From Mobula hypostoma (taxonomy: Eukaryota): DNA of 64,000 nt. The notes under the pieces were generated by a model, which saw only the letters and a list, made by a program, of their open reading frames with translations, was not told where the DNA came from and searched no databases. Below are positions 1,674 to 53,400 of the stretch, in pieces (position 1 is the stretch's first letter; each line of letters opens with the position of its first letter). The DNA is taken from NCBI RefSeq assembly GCF_963921235.1, contig NC_086097.1, positions 83,888,001 to 83,952,000 of the forward strand, written 5' to 3'. The position numbers and the translations under genes were made by a program.

Positions 1674-1895
<222 letters not shown>

Positions 1896-3347
1896 TGATA
1901 GTCGTTCGATTTTTCTGGCCGAGACTACTTGACTACAGTAAAGAATTCATTTAAGAAATGGGTGATGGGTTTAAGAGTGGAATGTTTGCCATGGAAACCA
2001 AAACTGGAGTGACTAGCTGCCCCTGAGACCCAGTTAATAAGCAGGAGAAGTTATGTGCAGTGGGGAGAGCTGTTAACAGTTCTGACACAAGATGCAACAA
2101 ACTAATTAGTGCTAAAGGATGTTCCTTCAGCATGCTTTTGTCTATGCTAATTCTCTCCCTTCTGAGCTGAAGGTAGAGGCTGGGACACATTATTTGTTCT
2201 TCAGTGAGATCACCAAGGAGCATTCCCACGGTGTGACAGTCTTTACTCAGCCGGGCAGAGCTGCATTTTCCATGTCCATTCCAGTGGCACTTGGGAACAA
2301 AGTCACCAGTTAACAAGAGATTCGGGGCAATTTCTTCTTTAGCAGCTTGTAGCTTGAACGTGTCCATGCATTGTGCCTCAGAGAATCGGATAGCATACGC
2401 CAGGTTTAGGGTCTCCGCGGCGTTTCAGTGCTGGTGCTGCAAAGAAGGAAAAAAGCTAGGCTGTAAGGGAAGGAATATCATTGATGGCTTCCCTCCATAG
2501 CAACTGGGTAAAGGGAGGTTGCCTGGCACCAGGAGGTGAAAATTCAGAGGTGATGCATGGGCTGGGAAGAAAATCAAAGTGAATTGCACAATGAGTAACA
2601 TACTATTCCTCATTAAAAGTAGATAATATGTGCTAGAGTAAGATTGTTTCTTAACGGTGTAGTCATCTTTATTCTATAACACACATTAATTTTCAGCTAA
2701 TCATTATATCTGCTCTTTAAACTGCCTGGATTATTAACATCAGGTTTCCATGTTGAAGTGCTGAATATTCTGAATTTTAACATTGCATTGTAATTGTCCA
2801 ATAAAAGTTCTGTTAAAGAAAATGAAAATGGTGCATTGAAAAATAAATATTGAATGTTTTTCTTACATGTTGACTGTAGACTTGCTTTAAAGGAGTTGAA
2901 TGTTTGACCTCGTACCTCTGGCTAAACTCGCCTGTCCTATCACATGCAACTGCTCTCACTGCATATCCTTATCCTGAGCACCGTGTGTCACTGCATCAAA
3001 GGACACATCCACTCTTGGATGTGCAGCTTTGTTAAATTGTATTCATACTTGTTTGTTTTAAGGTACTTCTGAATTTTAAAAAAAATCTTCTATCTAATGA
3101 CGTGGATTTGACAGGAAAATGACAGGGATCAATATTAACAATCATTTAATAATTGAAGTAATATGGGATTACTTCATAATGAAGTAATACGGGATGAAGG
3201 GGAGACTATCATTGTTTACAATTCATGTTCTTTTTGCTCAGTCTCCTGAACAAGCTCAGGTAGAGCAAGCATGCCAGCATGGACTGATTGGGCTAAATAG
3301 CCTGTTTTCATGCGGCTTATACCACGTTGACATCCCAAATTACAAAA

Positions 3348-3662
3348 GGGCGGCACAGCAGCATAGCGGTTAGCACCGTGCTCTACAGCACCAGTGATCA
3401 CCGGCCAGGGTTCAGCTCCTGCCTCTGTCTGTAAGGACTCTGTGTGTTCTCCCTGTGACAGCAGGATTCTCCCTGGCTCTTCCGGTGTCCTCCCGCATTC
3501 CAAAGACGCCTGGTTAGGGTTAATGAATTCTGAGCGTGCTATGTTGACACCAGAAGTGGGGTGACACTTGCAGGCTGCCCCCAGCACAATCTTTGACGCA
3601 AAACAACGCCTTTCACTGTATGTTTCAATGTACGTGTGACAAATAAAACTAATCTTCAATCT
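3348..3662 (+). mobile_element. tRNA-derived SINE with V-SINE-like central domain
   Basis: A-box-like TAGCGGTTAG, B-box-like GGGTTCAGCTCC, central TGTGTTCTCCC..TCCGGTGTCCTCCC..TCCAAAGAC, and a LINE-like tail with AATAAA and ATCTT repeats. Confidence 0.65.
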
Positions 3663-4178
3663 TTAAATTGTTCCAAAGTTCAACTCCGTTAGGGTTTTAT
3701 GTCCTTCCCACTCCTCCATTCCCTGCCCTTCCAGCTCTGAACAAAAGCTTGAAAAATCTGGATTGTGACCACTTCAGAAGGTGCAATACCAATCCACCAT
3801 CCAGTCTTTCCATGGGGTTTGTAAGCAGGGGGTGAAAGCACCTTAAAGATTTCTAATGTGCCCATAATTGTGACGGCCTTTCTACTACTGGTACACTGCA
3901 CCAGTCCTTAGTGGTGAGAGGTCAAAAGTGAGGGATTATCTGGAGATGCCTCCAGTGCTGTTGGCTTGTATGGATAATAATAATTTTTAACTTGCTCAAA
4001 ATTAGAAAACCTAACCATTGATATGCAATTGGTGTATTCTAACTCTTAAAATAAAACTGATTTGGAAAACTCCCCAATTCATCTCTTGTAATTAAAAGGA
4101 AGTCAATTGTTAGTTTTGGTCCCTGTCAGGCAAACCTACTGGGGAGCACAGCAGCTTTCTAGTAGTCTGGATATGAAG

Positions 4179-4386
4179 CTTTATCATTTGGAACCGTGAT
4201 GTTTAAACTGTTGCAATATCTAATATTATGCACTTTGTTTCCTCTTTCCACTTGCATGATCTCTTCCCTTCCCCATTTACCCCTTGCACGCACAACTATT
4301 CACTCTATCCCCGCCCCCTGCCCTCACCCAACAACTGCTGCCTCCATCACCATGCATGGCGTTCCACGTGGCAATGCCTAACCCAG
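4179..4386 (+). promoter_or_regulatory. Extended 3' splice site of the NM exon (AG-free zone, distant branch point, TGCATG and CAC motifs)
   Basis: No AG between 4179 and 4384. TCTAAT at 4219-4224 is followed by a pyrimidine tract. TGCATG at 4253-4258 and 4353-4358. Confidence 0.7.
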
Positions 4387-4467
4387 GATCACTCTGGCAC
4401 CCTTGGAGCAGAGGAATTCAAAGCCTGCCTCATCAGCTTGGGGTACGATATTGGAAATGACGCACAG
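4387..4467 (+). CDS. actn1: Alpha-actinin-1 non-muscle (NM) alternative EF-hand exon
   Basis: cccag acceptor and CAG|gtatt donor; 81 nt. Encodes [27 protein letters not shown], matching the ACTN1 NM exon as recalled. Confidence 0.96.
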
Positions 4468-4495
4468 GTATTGATTGCTAGCATATGATGTGAAG

Positions 4496-4847
4496 TAATG
4501 CACTCCCGTGTGCTGAATTAACTAAACTTGTGTTTTTTTTTCTCTTTTTTTTATCTGTGTTGATCTTATTGTTTCTCTGTGTCTGTGATGAATTGTCTTT
4601 TGTAATTTCTCTTCCTTTTCAATTGACTTTTCTCCAATTGCTTACAACTTTGAATCTGTCTTAATTGAAACATTCTGTACGCTTTTCGTCCATTTAAATC
4701 TCCCTTGGTTTCTGCTTGTGTTTTTTGCTTTGATTCATCGTTGACGTGTTTTTCCACTTGACTTTGCTGTCTCCTTCTCCCTTGTTGCCTAATGATGTTT
4801 CACTGTGTCTATGTCTTGTTGGTGTCTCCTTCCTCCTCTCTCTGTAG
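4496..4847 (+). promoter_or_regulatory. Extended 3' splice site of the SM exon (350-nt AG-free zone with distant branch point)
   Basis: No AG from 4496 to 4845. TTAACTAAAC at 4518-4527 is immediately followed by a long U-rich tract. Confidence 0.75.
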
Positions 4848-4913
4848 AAGAGGACTGGAATGATGGACAGTGATGATTTCAAAGCTTGCCTTATCTCCAT
4901 GGGTTACAATCTG
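4848..4913 (+). CDS. actn1: Alpha-actinin-1 smooth-muscle (SM) alternative EF-hand exon (not in the ORF track)
   Basis: Pyrimidine tract with tgtag acceptor and CTG|gtatg donor; 66 nt. Encodes KRTGMMDSDDFKACLISMGYNL, paralogous to the NM exon and matching the ACTN1 SM exon as recalled. Confidence 0.95.
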
Positions 4914-5304
4914 GTATGGTGACTTCCCGTTCCTTCTATTTTCAATTTATTAGCACTCGGTTCTGAAGCTGGCTGATTAATTCATGTTAACTGGTGTTTG
5001 TCATTGTACAAGTGTTTGGATTAGTGACTTGCTTTATCCAGAAACAGAGTTTGTTGGTTTCCTTGTTTGGGGTTGTTTTTTTTTAACACTAACAATAGTT
5101 TGCCTCTTCTTTCTATGGTGGAGAATTCTACCTTGTCCCAGAGGATTTCCATTTTACAAGAGTGACTAGTTAATATGCTCACATTGATACAGTAAGTTTC
5201 CCATAGATTACTGCAATGTGCCAAGTCGTTATTGCAAAAAATGTCCCTGGTCTGAGAAGTCCTCTCCTCCACTGTAGGTAATCTTGTTGGTACCTTGCAG
5301 GGCT

Positions 5305-5680
5305 TTTAAAATCCTAGAATCGTACAGCACAGAAACAGGCCCTATTGGTCCACTGTATCCATGCTGATCATGATGATTATCTCCACTCATCCCACCTCCC
5401 TCTACGCCTTTTAAATACCTTTTAAACATTGTACTTGTATCTGCCTTTTCCAGCTTCTCTGACAGCTCATTGCAAATAACCATCTCCCCTGATGTGGAAA
5501 ATCTTACCCCTCGATCTACTTTAAATTTCTCCCTTCATACTTCAAACCTGTGCCCTCTAGTTCAAGGCACCCATGTGACTATCTGTCCTAACCATGCTTC
5601 TCGTAATCTTAGAAACCTCCAATAAGATCAGCCCCCTGTGTTCCTGTGAGAGAATAAACCCAGACTCTCCAATCTAATTT
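5305..5680 (-). mobile_element. Decayed CR1-like LINE 3' fragment
   Basis: Resembles the CR1 3' ends at 16560-17000 and 45100-45570. Confidence 0.5.
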
Positions 5681-7859
5681 TTGGGTGATCTACTACAATG
5701 TCAGCAAAGTTAGCTTCAATTTGGAACATCTGCTTTCAAGAGATAATGGATTCCTCGACAGCTTCCATTTTTTTGTGAGGTAGAAGGTGGCTACGTTGGC
5801 CCTTCAAGGCTATCATCCAGATCCCTGCTTTCATGAATGAGATAGACTTACACTGGGAGAAAAATGTTGAGGGGCAATGGTGCAAAGGCAAGGAAATAAA
5901 GTTGAGATACAATTCAGTTCAACCTAGATCTGGGCCAATAGGATGCATGGTTACCACTTGTTCCTATATCCCTTTAAAGTATGGGACTCTGAGCCACAAT
6001 TATGCCTACAGTGTCGCTGTGCCTTTCCTTCCTCTCTCTTCCTGGCCATCCCAATCTGTCATGTGATTTCTGGGTTAGAGAGAATCCCAGGGGAAAGCTC
6101 CTTATCATTGACGCTTAAATGGGACATCATTAAGTGGGGAAGAACGTAAATTGGCAAGGTTTTGATGATGGAGGTGTATTGATTTACATTTGCAAAAGGC
6201 ATTAATGGATATTGAGCAATGACAGCAAAACAGAACTGATCTAAGCAGGCTTTTGAAGCCAAATGGCTTCAGCTGTTTCTACCATTAGCACACAATAAAA
6301 GGACAACCATAGGGAACAGCAACTTTGGATAAAGCAATCCAGACAAATTGTACAGATTGAAAAGGTTAAATATTCAGTAGAGTTTGTTTTTCTTTAAGAT
6401 ATTATTTGGAGCTGGGAATAAGAAAGCAATTTAGATCCTTAAAAAGAATAAGGTAAATAAATTAGCACTTAATTTGGCAACATCCTCTCTTTCACAGGGG
6501 CTGGAAGGTTGGATATGAGATTGCTTTAAGCACTCATTTGAAAAATATTTCTTTGTAATGTTGGTGTTCCGCCAGAGATAAATGGTGCAGGGTATAATGG
6601 ATATATCAGCAACTTAATACTGAGGTATTCCTAAAGTAGGCAAAACTTCTTCCTTGCTCTTGAGTGGGGGTGTAACATAGTCCTGGCAGAATACGTTTCC
6701 CTGTGCTTATACTAGGAGCCAAACTATATTGCAAATTTGGAGGGGAAGTGAGAAAAATTGTTCACGCTATCTAGGGACTCATTAAAACATGAGTTTATTT
6801 GATTTATTAATTGCTAAACTAATACAGATAAGGATTGTATGGTGTAATTTGTTGGTAAACGTTGCCCTTCCTCTCTGGGCACTGAATTTATCTCAAACTC
6901 AAATGGATCCTCGATTTTAGTTCCTCTAAAGCTGCCCAGAGTTATCCTACTGTTATAATTTACACTGTTTCACATAAGGTTGTATATTGGATATATTATG
7001 TCATATCCCCCCTACATAGATAAAAGTTATATCTACAGAAGCAGAGTTTACATGCAACTTTCTTCAGTTCTTTAACTTGTACCACCTCTAGTGTTGTTGC
7101 TGTAATATCTGCTTTCCCCTCCAAAAAAATGCTAAAATACAATTAGACAAGTTCAAATAATAGTAATGTTGACACAGAACTTTCTGCATCCCCCTTAATT
7201 CCACTTCAGCCCAACCCAGTCAGCCGTTGTATGGCAGAGACTGATCATCAACAGCAGATATCTTGGCACAGCAGACCGAGGTTACTCCTAGCTGACCTCC
7301 AGAGATTTGGAAGGCCACATTCGTTGACCAGTCCCTGTAGGTCTCAACCAGGCCAATTTTGGGAGGCTAAGTCAACCCCAACATCCCTTCAAGGAAGGGG
7401 AACTGTGCTTTGTTCTTTGATCTGAACTCCAGCTCGTCTGCAGTTACACCTTCAATAAAGCAGACATGCCTGCACATTATCAGAATAATTGTCAGCATTC
7501 TGGGGATTGGACAATGCCTGTCTCAACACCTTTTGGGTGTGTTATAGTATTATCTTTCTGATTGGGAGGACAGAAAGGGTGAAAACAGAATCAAGTTCTC
7601 AATCCACCTTAACGGCAGAACAAGACTATGAAGGAAAAATACTCAACTTCCCAGTTACAGTCCTAGTTAAACTTTAGTGGGATCAATGACTTTTACTCAA
7701 CAATTCCATCCAAACCCTTGTATGTATGCTTCTATGTTAGACTTAGACTGTTTTTAACAGAAAAAAAATATGTTGGCCTTAGTGTACACAGTTCAGGCAG
7801 TTAGGTATTGGCATGGGATTCCAGAAGAAATTCTTCATTCCCTATACCTAACCCAATCT

Positions 7860-8455
7860 CCTTAGCCTTTGTTGGTCAGGGTCGACCACAGATGTTGCAT
7901 CCTAGCTCTTGAAGTCAATACGCAAGCCGGGGCAGTACAATAAGGAGAGCAAGGTGTTGCCCATGCAGCAAGCTCCCCCTCTCCATGCAGCTGACGAATC
8001 CAAAGGAACAGCAGAGACAAATGTAGTTTGGTCAGTTTGGTACCAGCGGCGTCACAGGAGTTGCCAGTCGGTTTTGTACTCAACATCGGACTGCATTAAG
8101 GACTCCAGCTCTGGATTTTTCCTCGGGGTTTACTCATGAAACCTTCCCCATGAATGGGTATAGCCTCAAGGCAGCGGAGGTCTCAAATCAGTTTTCGTTC
8201 TCCTAGATGAGCTGCCAACCACAGCTGATAAGTCCTATTGGCCAGGAGCAAGTGATTTTATGGTGCCAGTAACCCACCTTTGCCCCTTCTCCTGTCAAGT
8301 AAAAACAGTTCCGCTGGACTTAGTTGCTAAGCCACATGTGAAGGCCAGGAGCTGGATTTGCTTTCAGAGCCTATTTGAAATGCACCCCATTGGGAGCAGC
8401 TAGTGGGAGCTTATCCCCACTACCCCCTCCCCAGCTCTACTAACTTAAGGAACCA
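7860..8455 (-). mobile_element. Non-coding retroposon fragment (RTE-like or SINE-like)
   Basis: GC-richer interspersed-repeat-like block with no meaningful ORF. Family assignment is tentative. Confidence 0.35.
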
Positions 8456-8873
8456 CATTGCCCATATCTCCAACAATATATATCAGAATCCAATAGCTCT
8501 GTAAGTAAAAGTTTGAACAGCAAACTCTCATCATCATTCCCCAAAGCCTCAACTCCATTAACCAACTTTGGGGGAGCTTCCCACCTTCATTTAATGTGAC
8601 TTCCTTTTCCATGTCCAATCTGGCTGCACCTTATCCTGGCATGGGGCAATCTCAGCCCCTCTTCCTCTTCCTCTTAATGTTGCCTCATGGCAACATGATT
8701 CTCACAAAGACAGTTTATATACAAATGCCAGTGATGTTAAGTTCATTTTCTGAAGCCTGTCTGCCTCTTAGCTCTACCATGGTTTCCTGGTGGCTTGCTT
8801 CACATCAGTCCTGGGAAGGGTTGCAACTTTTGGCAGTTCAGTGCAAGCAAAGTCATTCAAGAGTTACATCAGG

Positions 8874-10853
8874 GGGGCGTCACGTGATGACGTGGAATTG
8901 AGACGTGTAAATCCAGCTCTCCCATAAAAAATCAGCAAAGTACTGTTTAACCAAAGTAAAGTTAATAAATACTTTCCGAAAACTACTTATAAACTTCGTA
9001 AGACTACTCTACGATATGCCTCGTAAACCGCAACAGAAGAAGTCTGTTGTTGTGAAGTTGCCGCGATATGGGAAGAAAAAAGGGCCTACTGCAGCGATGG
9101 AGCCTTGGATTCAGGTTGGATCTCCTTCAGAGGAGACGCATTTTACCTCTGGCGTAGAAGAACAGGGAGCAATGGCGGCGGTAGCAGTCTCTCGGAAGAA
9201 GATGCCGGAATTGCGCATGTGCAAATCGACACAATTTAAACTACGAGAACCGACGGCCACTGCAACTGAAAGCAACTCAGTCAGAATTGGATATCACAGA
9301 GAATACAGATGAAGAAGAGGAGGAAGAACTGGAAGAGACTGGAAGTAAAGGAGACGATGAAGACATAAGAGAAGCTTTATTGCAGTTAACGACTGAATTA
9401 AGAAAATTAAGAACAGAGCTTAGAGACGTGAAGATGTGCTATGATAAAGCTATGAAAAGACAGGATAAAATGGATAAGAAACTTCAGAAGATGGAAACAA
9501 CAATGGAGCATATTAACGATAGAGTGGAAAAAACAGAAAATGATGTGCTTGTCTGGAACACGGAAAGAAATCGACTCTGGGAGAAAGTGGACGTGTTGGA
9601 AAATTTTAGTAGACGTAATAACATTAAAATTGTTGGTCTTAGAGAAGGTATAGAGGGAGATAATCCAATAGAATTTTTTCAAAGATGGATCCCGAAAACC
9701 TTGCAAATGAAAGAGGAAGACCGATCAATTGAAATTGAGCGCGTACATAGAGCCCTAAGACCAAAACCACAAGATGACCAATATCCACGATCAATTTTAA
9801 TAAAATTCTTAAGATTTCAAGACAAAGAAAGGATTCTACAGGCCGCTGCCCAAGCTGCCAAGAAGAGAAAAGGGCCACTGATGATAGAAGGGAAGAAAAT
9901 TTTTTTCTACCCTGACATAAGTTATGAACTTTTGAAAAGAAGGAAGAAGTTTAATCCAGTGAAAAAAGCCCTATGGGATCACGGTTATCAATTTATATTG
10001 CGTTATCCTGCAACCTTGAAGATATTTTTGCCTGGTGGAGAAAAAAGATTTTTTGACGATTACCGGAAAGCGGAGGAGTTTGTGCGAGATTCTTTGAAGA
10101 TTCACCAGATACAAGAACAAACTTAGGGGAGCGAGATGGATTGAAGATGAAGACTGGATCAAGGATTAGGCCTGTTGAATTTTTAGGCGGATGAATATAT
10201 AAATATATTATTAATTATATGAGGGAGGGGAAGAAAGGTTAAAATTTGAGGAATATTAGCTGGGAATAATATTAATTTTTTTCTATATATATATATAATT
10301 TTTTGTTACGGGGGAGCTGGAAGAAACACTGTCCAATTGCTACGTTATTCATGTGTGCAAGCGTGGCAATAGCCACCCATATCTTTTCATTCACAGCATT
10401 AGTGGGGGGGTATTTTGTTTTTTTCTTTTTTTGTATCTTCTATCTTTTTTTTCTTTTTGCCTGGATGATTTGGAGGGAAACACATAGCAACATGGTGAAG
10501 TTCAAAGAGATTTCCCCAGGGTACTATGAGAGTTGAGAAGCTAAGTAATGTTTTAGATTTTAAGAGATAAATATGTAACATTTTTGAATATTTGGAGCCC
10601 TTATTTATAGCTCCGATGATGAAGATCTTGGTTCCTTGGGGGAAAGTAACAAATATATATAAAATTTATTTTTATCTCATGGAGCATGTGCAAACTTTCC
10701 AATATTCAGGCAGTTCCTTTTTTTTTCTTTTTTTCTTTTCTTTTTAGGTAGGAGTATATATCAGGAGGGGGAGGGTTAAGGGGAGGGGGGAGGGTAGATA
10801 TTTTTTTCTCTCATGTATCACTTGAAAACTCAATAAAAATTATATATAAAAAA
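8874..10853 (+). mobile_element. L1-clade element with ORF1 but essentially no ORF2 (half-L1-like)
   Basis: 15-bp TSD AAGAGTTACATCAGG at 8859-8873 and 10854-10868. G-run 5' start, ORF1, G-rich 3'UTR, AATAAA at 10832-10837 and an A-rich tail. Confidence 0.9.
9016..10126 (+). pseudogene. L1 ORF1p (coiled coil, RRM, CTD) with a single frameshift near 9280
   Basis: Motifs LENFSRRNNIKIVGLREG, IERVHR, PRSILIKFLRFQDKERIL, FFYPDIS and LRYPATLKI. ORFs 9016-9312 and 9287-10126 overlap in different frames. Confidence 0.88.
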
Positions 10854-11983
10854 AAGAGTTACATCAGGAACTCACCACCAACATAAGCTCACTCAGGAGC
10901 AGGCTACAACCACTGTGTTTGAAAAGAAGTGAATTGCTAGTGCTGGAAGTGTTCAGCAAGTCAGGCAGCGCTAATGGTTGGAAGAGTCAGAGTTACTGTT
11001 ACATGTCAATGATCCTGTATGAGAATTGGAAATGAAAGTGGGGTAAAGTGGAGAGGATATTTACTCTTCCCCATCCCCCACTCTGCAATTTAAAATACAT
11101 TTGTTTTATTGCTTTTCCAGTTCCTGTGTAGATCATTCACATGGAGCATTACGCTCTGTTTCTCTCTCCACGGGTGCTGCCTGGCCTGCTAATTATTCAG
11201 GATTTGTTTTTATTGCACCCTCAATGTCGTATTCAATGTGGCTCTGAGCTTCTTATTCCCTATACTGTTCAGCATAAAACCTCCCCAGTACTTCAGCTCC
11301 ACCAGTGAAGCTGAACAACCCCCATTCCTCTGACTTTGTGAATACCTGCATTTGTTTAATACTTGCCAGCTGTGCTTTCATCTGCCAAAACCATAGGGTG
11401 GAATTTTCTCCAGAAAACCTTATTCCCGCTCCACCCCACCCCCCCCCCGCTTTCTTTAATAATCCCCTTAAAACCCCTGAATGTCAAACCTAAATAATTA
11501 GGGAATGCTATATGTTCCAATAAAGGTTTAATTCTGCAGGAATATCGTGTTCTCCATAACAACATGATTAATAAGGTAGAAAATAATGTCTAAACATATA
11601 GCCACATAATTTGCTTCTTCTCAAAGAAGCTGGCAGATGTAGTGAGCTAAATAGTCAGTTAATTATTTTTGATTTTTCATTGTGGAATGGTTAAGAAATT
11701 CTCGGTTACCTTGTGGGAAGATAATGTCCTTGAGGAGTTTTTAATGACTATTTGTATACCAGGTGAATAGTTGTTTTTACATCCAGTTTAGAAATTTACT
11801 GTGTGCAGGAATGCAGTACATAATTAGTGAACAAACGTTATATGACCAAGTCCTCAAATGGGTTTCAGTCGCAATCTTGTAGAGATGAGCCTTCACTTCT
11901 ACAGGAAGCTTGTGTAGAGAGATTTGATTTGTCCAAGTTACCACCTGCTAATCTTCAGCTGAAAATAAGGTTCAGCCAGTGTA

Positions 11984-12053
11984 AACTATAGCTGTAAAAT
12001 TCCACACATTGAACTTTAGCTGTCAAATTCCACACATTGAACTTTAGCTGTCA
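11984..12053 (+). repeat. 28-bp tandem repeat, about 2.5 copies
   Basis: The unit AACTTTAGCTGTCAAATTCCACACATTG starts at 11984, 12012 and (partial) 12040. Confidence 0.85.
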
Positions 12054-12124
12054 GAATGTGGATAGGTGCATGCTCTTAGACTCATAAGAGGCTTTGGTAC
12101 AATTGCTGTGGTTGATGATTTCAG

Positions 12125-12283
12125 AGCGAAGCAGAGTTTGGACGCATCATGAACATCGTTGACCCCAACAACATGGGTGTTGTAACATTCCAGGCCTTCC
12201 TGGACTTCATGTCTCGGGAGACCACAGACACGGACACCGCTGACCAGGTCATGGCCTCGTTTAAAGTTCTGGCTGGCGATAAG
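12125..12283 (+). CDS. actn1: Alpha-actinin-1 exon (EF-hand 2 to start of EF-hand 3)
   Basis: ttcag acceptor and AAG|gtgag donor; 159 nt. Encodes [53 protein letters not shown]. Confidence 0.96.
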
Positions 12284-12529
12284 GTGAGCTCTTCTACTAA
12301 GTACAAATACAACCTAAATTCCATTCATTCATTTGCTGCGGTCCATCCCCACACAATCAATATTTGTGCTGTTGGCCTGCGACACGAAGAGTGAGATTTC
12401 AGAAGAGGTTGTTAAAGTTTTTGCACTTGGCTTTGGAGCCATTCTACTGATGAAAATTGTTTAATTATACCATCTTCACCATCAATATGTGTGCAGGGCA
12501 TGATGGGTAGTAAAGGGCATGATGGGTAG

Positions 12530-12845
12530 TAAAGTGGCACAGCTAGTAGAAGTGCCACTCACAGCCCTGGAGATCTGAGTTCAATTCTTATCAAAGTTGC
12601 TCTAGGGGGAGGGGGTGTGAGTTTGCACATTCTTCCCATGAGTCTGTGGTTTCTCCCCATGCGCTGCAAGGACTTGAAGTTTGATAGTGATTGTCCAGAG
12701 TAAGTTGCTCATAGTGTGTGAGTGTGAGTGGTAGAATTGTGGGGGAAGATTTGAAAAGATGTGGATAAGGATCAGTGTAAATGAGTGGTTCATGGTCAAC
12801 ATGGATTCATTGGGCTGAAGAGCCTGTTTCCATGCTGTGACTTGA
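12530..12845 (+). mobile_element. HE1-like V-SINE with CR1-derived tail
   Basis: A box TGGCACAGCTAG, B box GAGTTCAATTC, V-domain-like GAGTTTGCACATTCTTCCC, tail GGGCTGAAGAGCCTGTTTCCATGCTG. Confidence 0.65.
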
Positions 12846-12904
12846 GTTGAATACGGGCAAGCATACAAAAGCTAGAGTTTTCCCAGCCAGTCAGTATATC
12901 TAGC

Positions 12905-13925
12905 GGATATGTAAAGGCAAGGCTGGTGAATCATGTAATGCTTGTCAAGGAGTGGGTATAAAGGGATCCTTTTTGGATTGGCTGGCAGTGACTGGTGCTG
13001 TCTTGCAGGGGTCTGTGTTGGGACCTTTTCTTTTTACGGTGTTTCTCAATGATTTGGATAATGAAACTGATGGGTTTGTGGATGACACAAAGGTAGGCGG
13101 AGGGGGCGGGTAGCGTTGAGGACGCAGAGAGGCTGCAGGGGACTTAGATTAGGAGAATGGGCAAAGAGGTGACACACGGATAAAGTGTGTGGTCGTGCAG
13201 TTTGGTAGAACGAATAAAAGCATATTTTCTTAACAGATAGAAAATTCAAATATTCGAGATGGCAAAGTGATTTGGGAGTCTTCGTGCAAGATTTCCTAAA
13301 AGTTAATTTGCAGGTCAAATCAGCGGTGAGGAAGGCGAATGCAATATTAACAATTATTTCAAGTGAACTAGTATATAAGAGCAAGGATGTAATGCTGAGG
13401 CTGTATAAGGCAATGGCCTCACTTGGAGTATTGTGAGCAGTTTTGGGCCCCTTATTTAAGAAAGGATGTGCTGATGTTAGAGAGTGTTCAGAGGAGGCTC
13501 ACTAGAATGATTCTTAGAATGAAAGGGTTATCATACGAGCAGCAATTGAAGGTTCTGGGCCTGTACCCGCAGGAATTTAGAAAATGAGGGAGGATCTCAT
13601 TGAAACCTATCGACTGGTGAAGGTGCTAGATGTGAAGTGTTTCCTTCGGTGGGAGAGTCTAGAACCAGAGGACACAGCCTCAGAATAGAGGGACTACTTT
13701 TACAACAGAGATGAGGAATTTCTTTAGCCAGAGAGTAGTGTATGAGTGGAATTCGTTGCCACAGGTGACTGTGGAGGCCAGGTTACTACGTGCATTTAAG
13801 GCAGAGGTTGATGGTTCTTATTAGTCAGGGCGTGAAAGGTTACGGGGAGAAGGCAGGATTGAGAGGGAAATGGATCAGCCATGGTGAAATGGTGGAGCAG
13901 ACTCGATGAACCAAATTTACTGAAG
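12905..13925 (+). mobile_element. CR1-like LINE, decayed RT C-terminus and 3' end
   Basis: Remnant QGSVLGP, DDTK, LEYCEQFWAP and RVV..WNSLP motifs with frameshifts. Confidence 0.8.
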
Positions 13926-14009
13926 CCCATTTACCATTTCTGTAATTTACAGTCTGAAGTAATTCCTTTTTCAGGCAGTAAAATGTGTGATTAATTTTGA
14001 AAGAAAATT

Positions 14010-16000
14010 TAGAGTTGAATAGCACAGAAACATGGCCCTCAGTTCACCCTGTACACGCCAGCCTTCTTTTGCATCAACATCAAGCCTGTTTGCCCACATT
14101 ACTTCAATGCATTACCTATTTATATTTATATTTAAGATACATTTAGACAGAGACGTAGCATGTCTGATGCCAACAGCCTCTCCAACTATCAGCCAGCTCT
14201 GCATTACAAAAAGGCTTACTCCTGAAGTCCCCTAAAATACTCCTTTCTTTCACCTTATTCTCTGTTCCCTTGCTTACCTCTACTACAGGACAAAAATTTT
14301 GACAATCTAATCAATCTAGGCCTCTCATAATCTTGAATACTTTCATCGGTTGTCAGTCAGCCTCCTTCACTCCGAGATAAACAACTGATCCAATCTCTCC
14401 CGATCGTTAAAGTCCTCCGATCCAGACAAGATCTTCACCAATTCTTACCACTCTCTTCAGCACAATCACATCTGTCTTATAGTATGGTGACCAGAACTGC
14501 ATTTCAAATGCAGCCTTACTACTTAATAGTAACATCTTATTCCTAGCCCTGAACCTAGGAAGACAAGCCATATGCCTTCTTCACCTGCATTACCATTTCT
14601 GGGAGCTGAGGACTTGGACTCCCTTGGTCTCTCTGTTCCTCAACATTTCTTAGAAGTTTGCCATTTACTGTATGTGTCCCACTCCTGTTTGACTTTCCAA
14701 ATTGCATTACCTTACACTAGTAGTTAGAATTTAATCCTGACCAATGTTCCTTCCAACTGATCTACGCTCAGCGACAACTTTTTTAGGTACATCTGAACAC
14801 CTCATTAACGTAAACATCTAATCAGCCAAGCATGTAGCAGCAACTCAATGCATAAGAGCATGCAGACTTGGTCAAGAGATCCAGTTGTTCAGACCAAATA
14901 TCAGAAAGGGGAAGAAATGTGATCTAAATGACCTTGACTGTGAAATGATTGTTGATGCCAGAAGGGGTGGTTTGAGCACCACAGAAACTGCTGGTCTCCT
15001 GGGATTTTCATGCACGGCGGTCTAGAGAGTTTATAGAGAGCGGTGGCTCTGGGTGAAAATACCTTGTTAATGAGAGAGGTCAGAGGAGACCGGCCAGATT
15101 GATTCAAACAGACAGGAAAGCAACAGTACTCAAATAACCACACGTTACAACAGTGGTGTGCAGAAGATCAACTCTAAATGCACAGCATGTTGAGTCTTGA
15201 AGTGGATAGCCTACAGCAGTAGAAGACCACAAATGTACACTGAGTATATATCCTGCTGTAGCCTTGGACATCCTCAATACTGACAATTTTTATGTCATCT
15301 GCAACTTTCTAAACATACCTCCTACATTCATAACCAAGTTGTTAATAATATATATCACAGACTGTAAAGCTCCCAGCACCAACTCCTGTGGTGAACCACT
15401 ATTCACAGACTTGGAAAAAATTTTCCACTTCACCTTCTATCACCAGGCTACTTTTGGATCCAATTAGCTTGCTCACCTTGTATCCCACATGCTCTAACTT
15501 TCTGGATCAATCTGCTATGTGGGACCTTGTCAAATGCCTCACTTAATATCCACCATGCTGCCTTTATCAATTTCTTTGGAGACCTCAAAAAAAATCTTAT
15601 CTGGCCCTGGGAATTTATTCACCCTTATACATTTCAATAGGTACCTCTTAATATCCACATGAACCAAATATTCATTGTATTCCTCCATGAATTCACTATA
15701 CAATGGATTATTTTTTCCTGACTGAATACAGAGGAGAGGTATTAATTAAGGACTATGGCCACATCCCCTGGCATCACACATAGGAACCCTTTTGGTTCCT
15801 CAAAGGACTCACACTTTCCCTGACCAATCTCATGCTCTAAATATGCTTACAAAATGATGTAGATTTTCACTTGTCTTACTGCCAAGGAGTTTTCATTACC
15901 TCCTTTTTCACTTCCTAATTTCTTTCTTAAGTACTTCCTACATACTTCATTGTCCTCAAGAAACCAGTTTGATTGTGCTTGCCAATACCTATTATATGCA
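14010..16000 (-). mobile_element. Old CR1-like fragments interrupted by a Tc1-like element
   Basis: Reverse-strand similarity to the other CR1 copies (for example ACCTTGTCAAATGCC, the AFDKV motif). Confidence 0.55.
14763..15248. mobile_element. Non-autonomous Tc1-like DNA element
   Basis: Termini TA-CGCTCAG...CTGAGTA-TA. A related TIR, TACACTCAGTGGCCACTTTATTAGGTACA, lies at ~49312-49340. Confidence 0.55.
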
Positions 16001-17220
16001 TCCTTCTTTTCGCCAATCAAACCTTCAATAACTAGAATTGGAATTGGTCTATTGTTGTCACATGTAGTGAGATACAGTGAAAGGCTTGCTTGCATACTGT
16101 TCATACAAATCATTATACAGTGCATTGAACTAGAACAAGGTAAAACAATATCAATGTAGAAGAAATTATGACAGCTGCAGATAAAGTGCAATGCAGGTAG
16201 ACAGAAACGTGCAAGATCATAACGAGATACATTGTGAGGTACAAGAGCTCCATCTTATCTTATGAAGGAACCATTCAATAGTCAGCAGGATAAAAGCTAT
16301 CCTTGAACCTGCTGGTATGCTTTTGTATCAGGCTTTTGTATCTTCTGTCCAATGGGAGAGGTAAGTAGAAAAGGTGCCTGGGGTAGATGGAGTCTTTGAT
16401 TATGCTGGCTATTCTACTGAAGCAGTGAGAGGTTTAGACAGAGTCCAAAGAGGGGAAACTGGTTTCTGTGATGTGCTGAGCCAACTAAGTTTCCCTAATC
16501 TTGCCCTCTTTTCCATTCACCCTTACTGGAACATTGTCATAGTAATAAAAAACTACAGCACAGAATCAGTCCATTCAGCCTATCTAGTCCATGCTGGACC
16601 ATTTAAACTGCTTAGTCCCATGGTCCTGCAACCAGACCATAGCCCTTCATACCACTACCATCCATGTACCTATCCAAGCTTCTCTTAAACATTAAACTTG
16701 AAATCACATTCACCATTTGTGCTGGCAGCCCATTCCACACACTCACCACCCTCTGAGTGAAGAAGTTCCCCCTCATGTTCCTCTTAAACATCTCACCTTT
16801 CACCCTTAACCCATGACCTGTAGTTGTAGTCTCACCAACCTCAGGGGAAAAAGCCTGCTTGCATTTACCCTATCTATACCCTCATGATTTTGTATATCTC
16901 TATCAAATCTTCCCTCAGTCTTCTACCTTCTAGGGAATAAAGTTGTAACCTATTCAATATTTCCTTATAACTCAGGTCATCCAGTCCTGGCAACATCCTT
17001 GTAAATTTTCTCTGTACTCTTTCAATCTTATTGACATTTTTCCTGCAAGTCAATGACCAAAACTACACATAGTACTCCAAATTAGGCCTCACCAATGTCT
17101 TATACAACTTCAACATAACATCCCAACTCCTGTACTCAATACTTTGATTTATGAAGGGCAATGTACCAAAAGCTTTCTTTACGACCCTATCTACCTGTGA
17201 CACCATTTTCAATGAATTAT

Positions 17221-17629
17221 TAGATTAGATTAGGTTCAACTTTATTGGCATTGTGCCGAGTACAGATACAAAGCCAATGAAATGCATTTAGCATCTGACC
17301 AGAAATGCAAAGAATAGTGTTATTTACAAAATAACTGTGAATAAAAAAAAGTGCTACAGCACACAAATATAAAAGTACTTGAGACAGTACAATACAGATG
17401 CAATACTGCTTAGCGGTGTGATGTGAGGTTCAGCAGTGTCACAGCCTCAGGGAAGAAGCTCTTCCTGTGCCTACTGGATGGAAGGACAGTAAAAAAATCC
17501 ATGGTTAGGGTGAGATGCATCCTTGATAATGCTTTTCACCCTGCCCTGGCAGCGTTTATGGTAGATGTTCTCAATGGTGGGCAATTGGGTGCAGATAATC
17601 CACTGGGCAGTTTTCACCACACGCTGGAG
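17221..17629 (-). mobile_element. 5'-truncated Rex1/Babar-like LINE tail nested in CR1
   Basis: 8-bp TSD TGAATTAT at 17213-17220 and 17630-17637; (TCTAA)n tail and AATAAA on the minus strand. Confidence 0.75.
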
Positions 17630-18380
17630 TGAATTATGGATCTATATTCCAAGATTCCTTTGTCCTACCACACTCCTCAGTGCCCTACTGTTTTCAGTGT
17701 AAGACCTACCCTGGTTAGTCTCCCAAAATGCAGCACCTCACACTTGTCTACATTAAATATCATCTGCCATTTTTCAGCCCATTTTTCCAGCTGGTCCAGA
17801 TTCCACTGTAAGCTTTGATAGCCTTCGTCTCCATCCTCTACACCCCAAATCTTGGTGTCATCTTCAAATTTGCTGGTCCAGTTAACCACATTATCATCCA
17901 GATTATTGATACAGACGACAAACAACAACAGACCAAGCACCAATCCCTGCAGCACTCTACTAGTCACAGGCCTCCAGTCAGAGAGGCAACCACCTACTAC
18001 CACTCTCTGACATCTCCTGCAAAGTCAATGTCTAATCCAATTTACTAGCTCATCTTGAATGCCAAGTGACTGAACCTTTTTGACCAGTCTCCCATTTTGG
18101 ACCTTGTCAAATGCCTTGCTGAAGCCCATGAAGACAACATCCAGTGCCTTGCTATCATCAACTCTCCTTGTGGCTCCCTTGAAAAACTCTATACGATCGG
18201 TTAGACACGACCTACCACACACAAAGGCACGCTGACTATCCTTCATCAGTCCTTGTCTATCTAAATACTCACATATCCGGTCCCCTAAAATACCTTCCAA
18301 TAACTTTCCCACTAGTAAGGCCAGCCCTCCCACTCTATCATCTCTAGATAGTGAATATTGAGCTGCCAGTCCTGCCCCTC

Positions 18381-18645
18381 GGCTGGGTCGGCTGGTGGCG
18401 CAGTGAGATCAGCGCCGGGCTCAAGAAAGGAGGTTCCCGAGTTCGATCCAGTGACAGACCGCTCCCGAGCGCACTCTCCGTCCGCGCTGGGTTGATGTCG
18501 AGCTCGCAACTCGGCCTCGTAAAATAATACTGTGAAATGTCTATGCGAGGAGTGGCGCCCCTCACAGCCTTTCGAACTGCTCCTTGTAAGGCATGAAAAT
18601 GCCAGACACTGGCCTCTCAGGTCTGAGTCGACGTCATCATCATCA
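18381..18645 (+). mobile_element. Young tRNA-derived SINE nested in CR1
   Basis: 10-bp TSD CCTGCCCCTC at 18371-18380 and 18646-18655. A box TGGCGCAGTGAG (18396), B box GAGTTCGATCC (18439), (TCA)n tail, CpG-rich. Confidence 0.9.
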
Positions 18646-19655
18646 CCTGCCCCTCCTGCAACAAAGTCTCACTAATGGCTACAATATCATAATTCCATGT
18701 GTTGATTCATGCCCTGAGCTCATCTGCCTTTCCTACAATATCTTTTGCACTGAAAGATACACAACTCAGAACATTAGCCCCCGCCATGCTCAACCTTTGG
18801 ATTCCTGACTTTGTCTGAGGTCTTAACAACTTCTGTCTCCACAATCTCACCACGATTAGTTCTGGCACTCTGGTTCCCATTCCCCTGAAACTCTAGCTTA
18901 AACGCCTCTGGACAAACTTTCCCACTAGGATATTAGTCCCCCTTCAGTTTAGGTGCAAACTCTCTCTTTTGTACGGGTCCCACCTTCCTCAGAAGAGAGC
19001 CCAATGATCCAAACATCTAAAGCTCTCCCTCCTACACCAACTCCTTAGCCATGTATTAAACTGTATGATCTTTCTATTTCTGGCCTCACTAGCATGTGGC
19101 ACAGGTAACAATCCTGAGGTTACAGCCCTGGAGATCCTGCCCTTTAACTTAGCACCTAACTCCCTGAAATCACTTTGCAGAAACTTTTCCCTCTTCCTCC
19201 TTATGTCATTGGTACCTGTACGGACCAGGACCACTGGCTGTTCACTTAGGAATGCTGAGGAGCCAAACTGAGATGTTCTAGACTCTGACACCTGGGAGGC
19301 AACATACCAACCTGGAATCTCGTTCTCATGCATAGAACCTCTTTTCCGTTCCCCGCTCTAATGAATTCCCTATTACCAAAGCTTGCTTCTTCTCCCCCCT
19401 TCCCCTCTGAGCCACAGAGCCAGACTCAGTGCCATGGTGGCCCCGAATCCTTACTTTTAAAAGTAAATCTTTCAAAAGACTTCCGCTTATCAGCTGCCAT
19501 TTTACCCACAAGCATCTTTACCCAGTCCAATTTCACCAAGTCCACTCTTGCAGTACTGAAATCAGCCTACCCCTAGTTAATGACCTTATCCTGAGGGCCA
19601 ACTTTATTCCTTTCTGCACAATTTTGACGTTGGAGCTTTGCAATTATTTTGCTAA

Positions 19656-19895
<240 letters not shown>

Positions 19896-50465: not shown

Positions 50466-53400
50466 TGTAATGCCTGGTTCTTTTTTTTACCGTTATGCTG
50501 TTCTGTATTTCATTTTGTGCTGTTCTGTGTGAGCTGCTTATTTCTCAGTTTATGTTTGGGTTACTGATGAAGATAAGAGATAGGAGAATTATGTGCCATT
50601 CAATTAGGATGGCCAGATTAAGAGGATTCTCTGACGAGGGACACTAAGGCTTTTGTTAGAAAGAGATGAAGAGAGAAGATGCTGGAGCGAAGAGGTCGTA
50701 GGATTCAATCTGGAGAGGGCCATGATTCGACGAAGCCTGGGGTGAGATCGAGGGAGGATCGGCGATGGGGAAACCGTGAGCTCCAACTTGTGCACATTAG
50801 ACTGTTACATTAAATGGGCCCTTTTCTTTTTTTGTTCTTTCTTTACTAACCCATTAGTCAAATTAAGAATTATAAAGCTAAATCGTTTAATTGTATGCAG
50901 TGTACTGTCTGTAATTTCGTGGCACTTATTTGTAACAGGGTAACGAATCACGCAGCATCTGTACAAACAGGGGGTTTCAGGGTGGGCTTGCACCTCAATC
51001 TCACACGTTTGGCGGGGCCAGAGAATGCCTTCCCTCGACTTACACAGCTGATGGAACCAGAACGTTTCATTGCAGAGGCTCGTCCAGGATCAATTTCATT
51101 GGATGCTGTGTGATTGCCCTGAGCATTGATCCAGTGGGTTGTGTGTTTAAGCCTGTGCTAAACTATTGTCCGGTAAAGTGATTACGAAACATAGTTATGG
51201 GTGCTGCAGGTTTGAGCGGTGGTGTGAGTCCACGGGGTTAGCGGTAACGAATGCGTGTGTGTTGAGTGGGGTAGACATTCATATCCCTGATGTTAATTTG
51301 AACATCATTAAAATTAATTCGAACCTTAAGTACTGTTAAAACCGTAGGAACAGTTGCGATTGTGGGGCGCAGGTTTGATATAATGGCTGGCGAAGACTTC
51401 GTTTTAGTCCAGACTAGCGCTGACGTAACCGCAGTGGGACTGCCCGTCACTACTGGGGCCTCGGGAGAGGGGGGCTGTGGGCTGTCCATACTTTCCGGGA
51501 GGAGGAGTGTATGGGAGAGTGAGCTGAATTGCAAGCCAAGTCTCCTGTAGCTGGGGGCGGAGACTTCAAAGACAGGTTGCTTGTGTTTCTGCGGAGCAAG
51601 GGGAAGGAGTGGTCTGAATTGGAATGTCTAATGAGTCCCCCAGCGAAGAGTGGGACTTCTGAGTTATCAGCCCTTACCTCCCTGACGAATAAATGGTCCA
51701 GTGCCCAGGCAGAGGATCCAAGTTATCGAAAGCGGAGAATATTCTCTGGAGTGAAGCCCACCCCTGAGGGGGAAGAGGAGTAGGAGACTTGGGCAGAGCA
51801 GGCCTCTCAGTTGTTAGATGAGTGGCAGTGCTCTGATGACGTAAAAAGACAGCGATTGGCTGAGAGCTTTCTAGGCGGGGTTGCTGACGCAGTGAGAGCC
51901 GTAAAGGCTCAGAACCCCTTTGCCACTTCTGCAGCCTACATGCAAGTGCTGGAGAAGGTGTTTGGTGTGACGGGAAGCCTGCTGGAGCTCATGATGGGGT
52001 TTCAGAGCATATGTCAAGAGAAGGGGGAGAAGCTTTCTGCCTACATTTTATGGCTAGAGAGGCAGCTAAATTGCTTACGGCGTACAGAGGCCATTCAGAC
52101 AGCTGAGGTGGATCAGCTAAGAATGGACCAAATAGCGAAAGGCGCCCAGTCCCAGGACCTGATCGCTTGGGGTCTCCGACTGTCTCGTTAGACATGCCCC
52201 CCTCCCTCGTTTGTTGAGCTGATCAGAGAAGTATGAGAGGAGGAGAATGCATCAGAGACACGGTGGGGGGGCTCTGTCAGCAGGGTACAGTCCTCTGTAG
52301 TAGCCCCCTGCATTGAAGTAACCACGGATAGCCAACCCTGTGGAGTGGTAAAGGATATCGTGGCAGAGTTGAGAACTGAGATGACCCAGTTGTTATCAGC
52401 GAGTGTGGCCCCCCACCCCCCGTACAGTAGAGCTGATAGGGAGGCGGATTCCCTAAGGGGACGGACTACACAGAGGACTGCTAGCAGCTGGGGTCCCGCA
52501 AGAAGGGGAGCGGCTGGTGTTGTCTGTTATAACTATGGTGAAGAGGGACACTTCGGGTGGGAATGTGAACGATGGAAATCCCCTCGGAGAGTGAGCCCCC
52601 GGGTACCTAAGCAGAGAGAGACTTAGAAGAGACCCAGTGAGGGAACGGCTTGGTGTCTCGGAGGGAACATGTTCCCAGCAATATATCAAGGAACACCCTA
52701 AAGCAAAAAACTCCAAGCTCCAAGTATCAGCGTATCACTACTGATAGAGGGTATTTATGCTCGAGCCATACTTGACACAGGGTCACAGGTCACTTTGCTG
52801 TACCATTCGTTTTACAACAAGTATTTGATGCATTTACCATTGATGCCACTTAGTGCGCTAGAGATCTGGGGTCTTAGTGCGGCTGATTATCCATTTGATT
52901 GTTATTTGTTCGTGAAGCTGGAGTTTTGGAGGCAGATGCGGAAGTGGCTGAGGTCCTTGATACATTAGCGCTGGACCCCGTTGAGAAGGGCGGAGTTTCA
53001 GTTCTTGAGGGGACAAATATTCCTATTGTGAGGAGGCTAAAGGGAGCCTCCAAGGAGAGAGCTTTCTGAAAACATTGTCTGTTCACCCTGTGTTTCCAGC
53101 TGCTTTTGAGAAGGGCGTGACGGCACTGGGCCAGGTAATGAGCTTGAACGTGGGGTTCCCCCAGTTAAAACCAATTGTTTTACGGCCTGGGGAAGTAGCG
53201 AGAGTGATGGGAAACCCCAAATTTCCCAAAATACCTGAGGCTGAGGCTCTCTTGGTGGACACTCACTCTGGAAGACCACGAAGAGGAGTCGGGCGTACCT
53301 GCTGGGGTACTGGTGAGGCCCGAACTGCAGAAGCCCCCGGTTGTACAGGCAAACAGGGTGGTAGTGATTGTCAGGAACACTACGTAGAGGGAGGTCACCT

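What the first reader, a model, noticed from the sequence alone, without database searches (positions are those of the whole stretch)
8859..10868. Complete TSD-flanked 2-kb L1 with ORF1 only: candidate half-L1 (HAL1-like) non-autonomous family
Seen: a perfect 15-bp TSD brackets a 5'UTR, an ORF1 of ~370 codons with one frameshift, a spacer, a 3'UTR, AATAAA and an A tail. There is no endonuclease or RT. Only LRDKYVTFLNIWSPYL-stop (10560-10610) remains, which resembles the extreme C-terminus of vertebrate L1 ORF2. Established: ORF1-only HAL1 elements are known from mammals. Inference: this is either an independently evolved ORF1-only family mobilised in trans by L1 ORF2p in a fish lineage, or a one-off internal deletion at ~10555-10565.
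Basis: partly seen in the sequence, partly recalled or inferred. Interest (0 to 1): 0.78.

Follow-up and report, generated by a model that had tools for sequence, protein, structure and literature searches.

The report
Ray LINE-1 lacking its enzyme gene
A 2-kb dead copy of a LINE-1 jumping gene in a ray's genome kept its RNA-binding gene but lost its copying-enzyme gene, and it probably jumped in this shortened form by borrowing the enzyme from full-length relatives, a way of life described for mammalian 'half-L1' elements.

Summary
The structure is real. A 1,980-nt L1 (5'UTR, ORF1, spacer, 16 ORF2 codons, 3'UTR, A tail) lies between exact 15-bp TSDs in an intron of an alpha-actinin gene of a ray close to Mobula. 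Public contigs show the empty site in one related species (C) and the insertion in another (B). In three runs, contigs of a longer parent L1 break off on both sides of 10559: one side runs on to an ATG, the other arrives from ORF2-like codons. So almost all of ORF2 was removed at one point, without splice-type ends. One contig of species C, which lacks this insertion, is laid at least 16 letters across the junction. That suggests the shortened form existed elsewhere and was copied in trans, i.e. an independently evolved HAL1-like lineage (about 70%). The evidence is one contig, read indirectly and below the tool's 31-letter bridging standard; no genome was available, so copy number and ORF1 selection are untested. 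This copy is dead (frameshift, early stop). It is a new member of a known kind; my searches found no such report outside mammals for L1.

The parts
8859..8873 (+). Left target-site duplication (15 bp)
   Evidence: Exact repeat; empty site in organism C with 15 letters fitting both sides. Bottom strand at the edge reads CTT/GAA, a loose fit to the L1 endonuclease (pyrimidine)n/purine site (consensus recalled).
8874..9015 (+). 5'UTR, 142 nt, G-run start, 7 CpG; presumed internal Pol II promoter
   Evidence: Length and CpG count match short non-mammalian L1 5'UTRs; start resembles the frog consensus (PMC5381506 sections 7 and 9). Two contigs of organism C start here with other flanks (table 8). 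Promoter function inferred.
9016..10144 (+). L1 ORF1 (acidic N-part, coiled coil, RRM, CTD), broken in this copy by a 2-nt loss near 9278 and a stop at 10124
   Evidence: PDB human ORF1p E 2e-12 over residues 130-302 of the second frame; 83-88% identity to Mobula hypostoma models; two frames by tblastn; other copies lack the gap (table 4).
10145..10559 (+). Inter-ORF spacer, 415 nt kept, T-rich; about the last 21 nt before the parent's ATG are gone
   Evidence: fish spacers are 311-730 nt and T-rich; parent-type loose ends at 10559 (table 7).
10559..10560 (+). Deletion junction that removes nearly all of ORF2; 1-nt overlap, no GT-AG ends
   Evidence: Loose ends on both sides at 10559 in X1 (4 and 3 contigs), X5 (4 and 5) and X9 (2 and 3); one X16 contig laid to at least 10575.
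10560..10610 (+). ORF2 C-terminal remnant, 16 codons and a stop
   Evidence: Parent-type contigs arrive in frame from codons read by eye as E-K-I-T-Y-N. Identity as L1 ORF2 C-terminus rests on position and recall; too short for a database search. In X5, 8 contigs leave at 10607 and stay open for further codons, so the stop may mark a second loss.
10611..10853 (+). 3'UTR with T-rich and G-rich tracts, AATAAA at 10832, short decayed A tail
   Evidence: high depth in X1 and X5.
10854..10868 (+). Right target-site duplication
4914..12124 (+). Host intron of an alpha-actinin (ACTN1-like) gene, between the second EF-hand alternative exon (4848-4913) and the next exon (from 12125); element is in sense orientation
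   Evidence: Exons found with recalled peptide motifs, edges; Pfam EFhand_Ca_insen E 0.00094. Gene name from recall.

Best explanation
A dead copy of an ORF1-only, non-autonomous L1 lineage (HAL1-like) that arose independently in rays. Step 1 (shown): an autonomous-type L1 lost everything from about 21 nt before its second ATG to the last codons of ORF2, at a 1-nt overlap. Step 2 (inferred): the shortened element kept its promoter-bearing 5'UTR, ORF1 and poly(A) end, was transcribed, coated its RNA with its own ORF1p and took ORF2p in trans from the parent family. Step 3 (shown by hallmarks): target-primed reverse transcription placed a full-length 1,980-nt copy with 15-bp TSDs in an actinin intron, after the split from organism C and before the split of A and B. 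Step 4 (shown): the copy then decayed.
For: Empty site in C and insertion in B. Parent-type contigs break at 10559 on both sides in 3 of 4 runs. The single X16 contig covering 10522 has from_end 54; that column equals distance to the end of the laid piece in 17 of 17 checks, so it is laid to at least 10575, whereas a clip at 10559 caps the value at 38. Its depth is 30.9 against 3.3 for the empty-site contig, it has a 1-nt gap at 10511 relative to the window, and only the empty allele is listed at this locus in that run. A random deletion would land this neatly in about 0.1-0.9% of cases (no correction for ascertainment). Depth at 5' end is about equal to 3' end, as expected of a short, rarely truncated element (weak).
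Against: One contig only; 16 letters past the junction are certain, under the tool's 31-letter bridging standard; its letters were not seen. None of the 32 listed pieces (of 6,968) spans the junction. At 10522 X1, X5 and X9 give 35, 38 and 35, which fit a break at 10559. Loose-end counts (4 against 14 contigs at 10522 in X1; 4 against 17 in X5) are compatible with most copies being parent-type. Junction searches elsewhere were blank, though those collections showed no ray loci at all. ORF1 selection untested.
Confidence: 0.7

Rival explanations
1. One-off internal deletion: a full-length L1 inserted here and later lost ORF2 by DNA repair, or lost it once by a template jump during reverse transcription. 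No family.
For: Parent-type contigs are among the six listed loose ends per run in X1, X5 and X9 on both sides; no listed piece spans the junction; the copy's own ORF1 changes look neutral, 8 non-synonymous to 4 synonymous among 12 sites taken from the 40 of 426 rows shown.
Against: The X16 contig laid across the junction in a species with the empty site; the neat removal of ORF2 only; a possible second change at 10607.
Confidence: 0.2
2. Recurrent dead-end product: the parent L1 repeatedly yields the same deletion (a jump or processing hotspot), so several copies share the junction but none is a source element, as with spliced L1 insertions (SpIREs).
For: Would explain a shared junction together with an abundant parent. 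SpIREs are known dead ends (PMC5860796, abstract).
Against: The removed segment has no GT-AG ends in either register (read by eye table 7); only 1 nt of overlap; no stable fold across the junction (z -0.19, which tests only the joined form).
Confidence: 0.07
3. Assembly collapse of a full-length L1.
For: No listed X1 contig spans the junction; no long read seen.
Against: Breakpoints share only 1 nt, so there is no repeat to collapse; the spacer and 3'UTR T-rich repeats lie elsewhere; a different species' contig appears to cross the same point.
Confidence: 0.03

Closest known systems
HAL1 (half-L1) of mammals (Smit 1999; Bao and Jurka 2010, not held; known here from passages in PMC5753468, PMC3627910, PMC5786205, PMC3183009)
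   Same: L1-derived, encodes only ORF1p, keeps 5' and 3' ends, presumed to use ORF2p in trans; said to have arisen independently several times.
   Different: Host is a ray; ORF1 is closest to ray L1s, so not descended from mammalian HAL1; keeps a long fish-type spacer and a few ORF2 codons; family size and long-term ORF1 conservation (reported for guinea-pig HAL1) untested.
Non-mammalian two-ORF L1 with short 5'UTR and long T-rich spacer (Boissinot and Sookdeo 2016, PMC5381506)
   Same: 5'UTR 142 nt, ORF1 about 1.1 kb, spacer about 0.43 kb, 3'UTR 0.24 kb; adding a 3.8-kb ORF2 gives about 5.8 kb, the fish mean.
   Different: ORF2 is absent, so it cannot move by itself.
Other ORF1-only LINE derivatives: HeT-A (Jockey clade), Ag-Sponge (CR1 clade) (passage in PMC5786205)
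   Same: ORF1 kept, enzyme gene lost.
   Different: Other LINE clades, insect hosts.
SpIREs, spliced L1 insertions (PMC5860796, abstract)
   Same: Internally shortened L1 copies inserted with full ends.
   Different: SpIREs lose 5'UTR or 5'UTR/ORF1 parts at splice sites; here ORF2 is lost without splice-type ends.

Membership tests
L1 clade | ORF1p with coiled coil, RRM and CTD of the L1 type | tested here: met
   PDB human ORF1p E 2e-12; Pfam only weak.
L1 clade | Poly(A) end, variable TSD, T-rich/purine cleavage site | tested here: met
Autonomous L1 | ORF2 with AP endonuclease and reverse transcriptase | tested here: not met
   No such frame in the element; only 16 codons remain.
HAL1-like non-autonomous L1 | Encodes ORF1p only, with both element ends kept | tested here: met
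   ORF1 is broken in this copy.
HAL1-like non-autonomous L1 | Several independent insertions share the shortened structure | tested here: inconclusive
   One contig in organism C laid 16 or more letters past the junction, below the 31-letter standard.
HAL1-like non-autonomous L1 | Autonomous partner in the same genomes | tested here: inconclusive
   Parent-type contig ends on both sides of 10559 in 3 of 4 runs; only up to 30 letters shown, no full ORF2 seen.
HAL1-like non-autonomous L1 | ORF1 kept under purifying selection among shortened copies | not testable with these tools
   No genome held; copies cannot be sorted by structure.
Mammalian HAL1 by descent | ORF1 and UTRs derived from a mammalian L1 | tested here: not met
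   All 10 named hits of 14 are rays; short 5'UTR and long spacer.
SpIRE | Deleted segment bounded by splice donor and acceptor | tested here: not met
   Ends read by eye table 7 are not GT-AG.

The most novel reading that the evidence does not exclude
A long-lived HAL1-like family with hundreds of copies and several subfamilies in devil rays and kin, older than a 4% species divergence, that amplified beside its parent with ORF1 under purifying selection. It would be, as far as my searches reach, the first vertebrate L1 ORF1-only parasite outside mammals, and would show that cis-made ORF1p plus borrowed ORF2p is a general L1 strategy. The exact parent and breakpoint are still visible, so the birth of such a family could be reconstructed.
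Probability: 0.3. Interest if true: 0.62.

Novelty: new member of a known kind. Interest (0 to 1): 0.42.

Why it matters
HAL1 elements are the natural evidence that ORF1p is needed in cis while ORF2p can be borrowed, and the papers I read name only mammals for them. An independent origin in a ray, with parent and breakpoint still readable, would show the strategy recurs across jawed vertebrates and would allow a clean dN/dS and cis-preference test. If it is a one-off deletion it is ordinary. The insertion is also a presence/absence marker among three related ray species.

Tried and rejected
No whole genome was available, so the genome-wide junction BLAST could not be run. Related loci: none in viral or metagenome contigs; exact junction pattern 0 matches in metagenome contigs. 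An antisense frame crossing the junction (88 aa) had 0 hits among 1.84 billion representatives; expected to be weak. Longer ORF1 fusions: 0 of 4,161 candidates. The 17-aa ORF2 remnant is below the search minimum, so its identity was not confirmed in a database. No second copy or L1 ORF2 C-end motif in the window; Pfam scan of 95 of 147 frames of 85 aa or more found RT and other repeat domains elsewhere in the window only. No RNA holder on record; X9 is only guessed to be RNA, so expression is not claimed. Summed depth (about 1,500 times flank in X1, 670 in X5) is not a copy number and mixes parent and shortened forms. Depth bookkeeping for X16 fits both a short and a long crossing. No fold signal at the junction. 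Recombination between the T-rich repeats of spacer and 3'UTR rejected: the breakpoints are not in them. Splicing rejected: no GT-AG. The codon table was off by one base for the sites before the frameshift and is replaced.

Full report
Observation. An exact 15-bp repeat lies at 8859-8873 and 10854-10868; it is the only repeat of 8 or more letters between the two end zones. Between the copies are 1,980 nt: a 142-nt 5'UTR starting with a G run, ORF1 at 9016-10144, a 415-nt T-rich spacer, 16 codons and a stop at 10560-10610, a 243-nt 3'UTR with AATAAA at 10832 and a short A tail. The main ORF1 frame matches human L1 ORF1p structures at E 2e-12; Pfam gave only a sub-threshold L1 hit. There is no endonuclease or RT frame. 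Besides the frameshift near 9278 there is a stop at 10124, six codons early.

Host and site. The ORF1 search gave 14 hits among 1,828 candidates; all 10 named ones are rays, the best Mobula hypostoma at 83-88%. The element sits in sense orientation in an intron of an alpha-actinin gene (gene name recalled). No genome was available, so the key evidence comes from public contigs. Of 24 runs listed I laid 4 on 8400-11400: X1 (organism A, DNA, possibly the window's own source and so not independent), X5 (B, DNA), X9 (A, guessed RNA), X16 (C, kind unknown). The output shows 40 of 426 letter differences, 12 of 67 gaps, 24 of 481 loose ends and 32 of 6,968 pieces.

The insertion is real and can be placed in time. 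One X16 contig joins 8858 to 10854, skipping 1,995 nt with 15 letters fitting either side: the empty target. In X5, flank contigs run into the element from both sides (to 8895; from 10826), so B carries it. Flanks differ from the window at 16 of 979 letters in B and 25 of 601 in C. The insertion therefore fell after C split off and before A and B did. The bottom strand at the left edge reads CTT/GAA, a loose L1 endonuclease site (consensus recalled). Twelve ORF1 sites where about 90% or more of X1 depth differs from the window give 8 non-synonymous and 4 synonymous changes, and other copies lack the 2-nt gap: the copy decayed after insertion.

The deletion is mapped. In X1, X5 and X9, contigs break off at 10559 on both sides (4 and 3, 4 and 5, 2 and 3 contigs). 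Those leaving the spacer reach an ATG 21 nt later, followed by codons for T-N. Those entering at 10559 arrive in frame with the remnant from codons for E-K-I-T-Y-N (both read by eye from the loose letters). That these are the start and end of ORF2 is inferred from position and from recall of shark L1 ORF2 ends; no database test was possible. The two sides share 1 nt and the removed piece has no GT-AG ends. Its length was not measured; a 3.7-3.8-kb ORF2 would give a parent of about 5.8 kb, the fish mean in PMC5381506 (section 7). In X5, 8 contigs leave at 10607 and stay open past the window's stop, which may mark a second loss.

Family or one-off. No listed piece spans 10559. One indirect datum bears on it. 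The column from_end equals the distance to the nearer end of the laid piece in 17 of 17 checks against listed pieces. At 10522 the single X16 contig has 54, so it is laid from 10469 or earlier to 10575 or later; a parent-type clip at 10559 would cap the value at 38. It has depth 30.9 against 3.3 for the empty-site contig and a 1-nt gap at 10511 relative to the window, and X16 lists only the empty allele here. The simplest reading is a second locus with the same junction in a species that lacks this insertion. Then the junction is older than this insertion, and the shortened RNA was the template. Against: it is one contig, 16 letters is under the tool's 31-letter standard, and I did not see its letters. 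X1, X5 and X9 give 35, 38 and 35 at that site, which fit a break at 10559. Loose-end counts are compatible with most copies being parent-type. Weaker support: a random deletion would fall this neatly in about 0.1-0.9% of cases, uncorrected for the fact that neatness drew attention; depth at the 5' end is about equal to the 3' end, and 3'UTR depth is 0.6 of ORF1 depth. Summed depth (about 1,500 and 670 times flank) shows a large family but is not a copy number and mixes both forms.

Mechanism. Shown: deletion of nearly all ORF2; insertion by target-primed reverse transcription with full 5' end and TSD; later decay. Inferred: transcription from the 5'UTR, ORF1p made in cis, ORF2p taken in trans from the parent family through the poly(A) end. 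I put 0.70 on an ORF1-only lineage with at least two insertions, 0.20 on a one-off deletion, 0.07 on a recurrent dead-end product and 0.03 on assembly error.

Comparison. It works like HAL1, described as L1 derivatives encoding only ORF1p that arose several times in mammals (PMC5753468, passages), with long-kept ORF1 in guinea pig (PMC3627910, passages) and young families of 32-106 copies (PMC3183009, table passages). HeT-A and Ag-Sponge are parallels from other clades (PMC5786205, passages). It is not a mammalian HAL1 by descent. Architecture otherwise matches non-mammalian L1 (PMC5381506, abstract and sections 7, 9, 11, 15). SpIREs (PMC5860796, abstract) differ in needing splice sites. Passages of PMC5381603, PMC4161310, bioRxiv 050880 and a mobulid genome preprint (10.64898/2026.10.27.761883) name no ORF1-only L1 in cartilaginous fish. 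Nine paper searches (listings) showed none either. Bao and Jurka 2010, Repbase and Dfam were not seen, and preprint supplements are closed, so prior cataloguing is not excluded. Earlier scan notes hold no look-alike of this stretch; word search returned HAL1-like and one-off cases from other genomes, unchecked.

Verdict. Observation confirmed; breakpoint, empty site and relative age established; family status probable but resting on one indirect contig. New member of a known kind, interest 0.42. If a large, selected family is confirmed by a junction BLAST in ray assemblies (probability about 0.3), interest would rise to about 0.62.

Noticed in passing
Proteins P0003 (Hemitrygon akajei), P0015 and P0016 (Hypanus sabinus): Gene models fusing a TRIM RING/B-box start in frame to a nearly whole L1 ORF1, 94% identical between two stingray genera. 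A candidate domesticated ORF1 (L1TD1-like or TRIM-fusion), or a shared intronic L1 read through by annotation.
   Followed up: partly
Proteins P0001, P0004, P0006, P0012: Ray gene models named TADA1, ADAT1, STXBP6 and FAM122B isoforms consist largely or wholly of L1 ORF1; chimeric host-L1 transcripts or mis-annotation seem common in rays.
   Followed up: no
window 1716-19893: 3' part of an alpha-actinin gene with two alternative EF-hand exons (4387-4467, 81 nt; 4848-4913, 66 nt), like the non-muscle and smooth-muscle exons of ACTN1 (naming recalled).
   Followed up: partly
window 10607-10610: In X5, 8 contigs continue open past the point where the window has a stop; possible second deletion or 3'UTR exchange that could be diagnostic of the shortened lineage.
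   Followed up: partly
window 11154-11190: A 37-nt piece of a high-copy repeat with about 100 different flanks in X1 and X5.
   Followed up: no
window 10855-10939: One X5 contig skips 83 nt starting in the right TSD, at about half the flank depth: a possible deletion allele in organism B.
   Followed up: no
window 51500-56000 and 56279-57677: Decayed LTR element with a PNMA-type gag and RT pieces, followed by a LINE RT with an ALKBH8_N-like C-end in two long frames.
   Followed up: no
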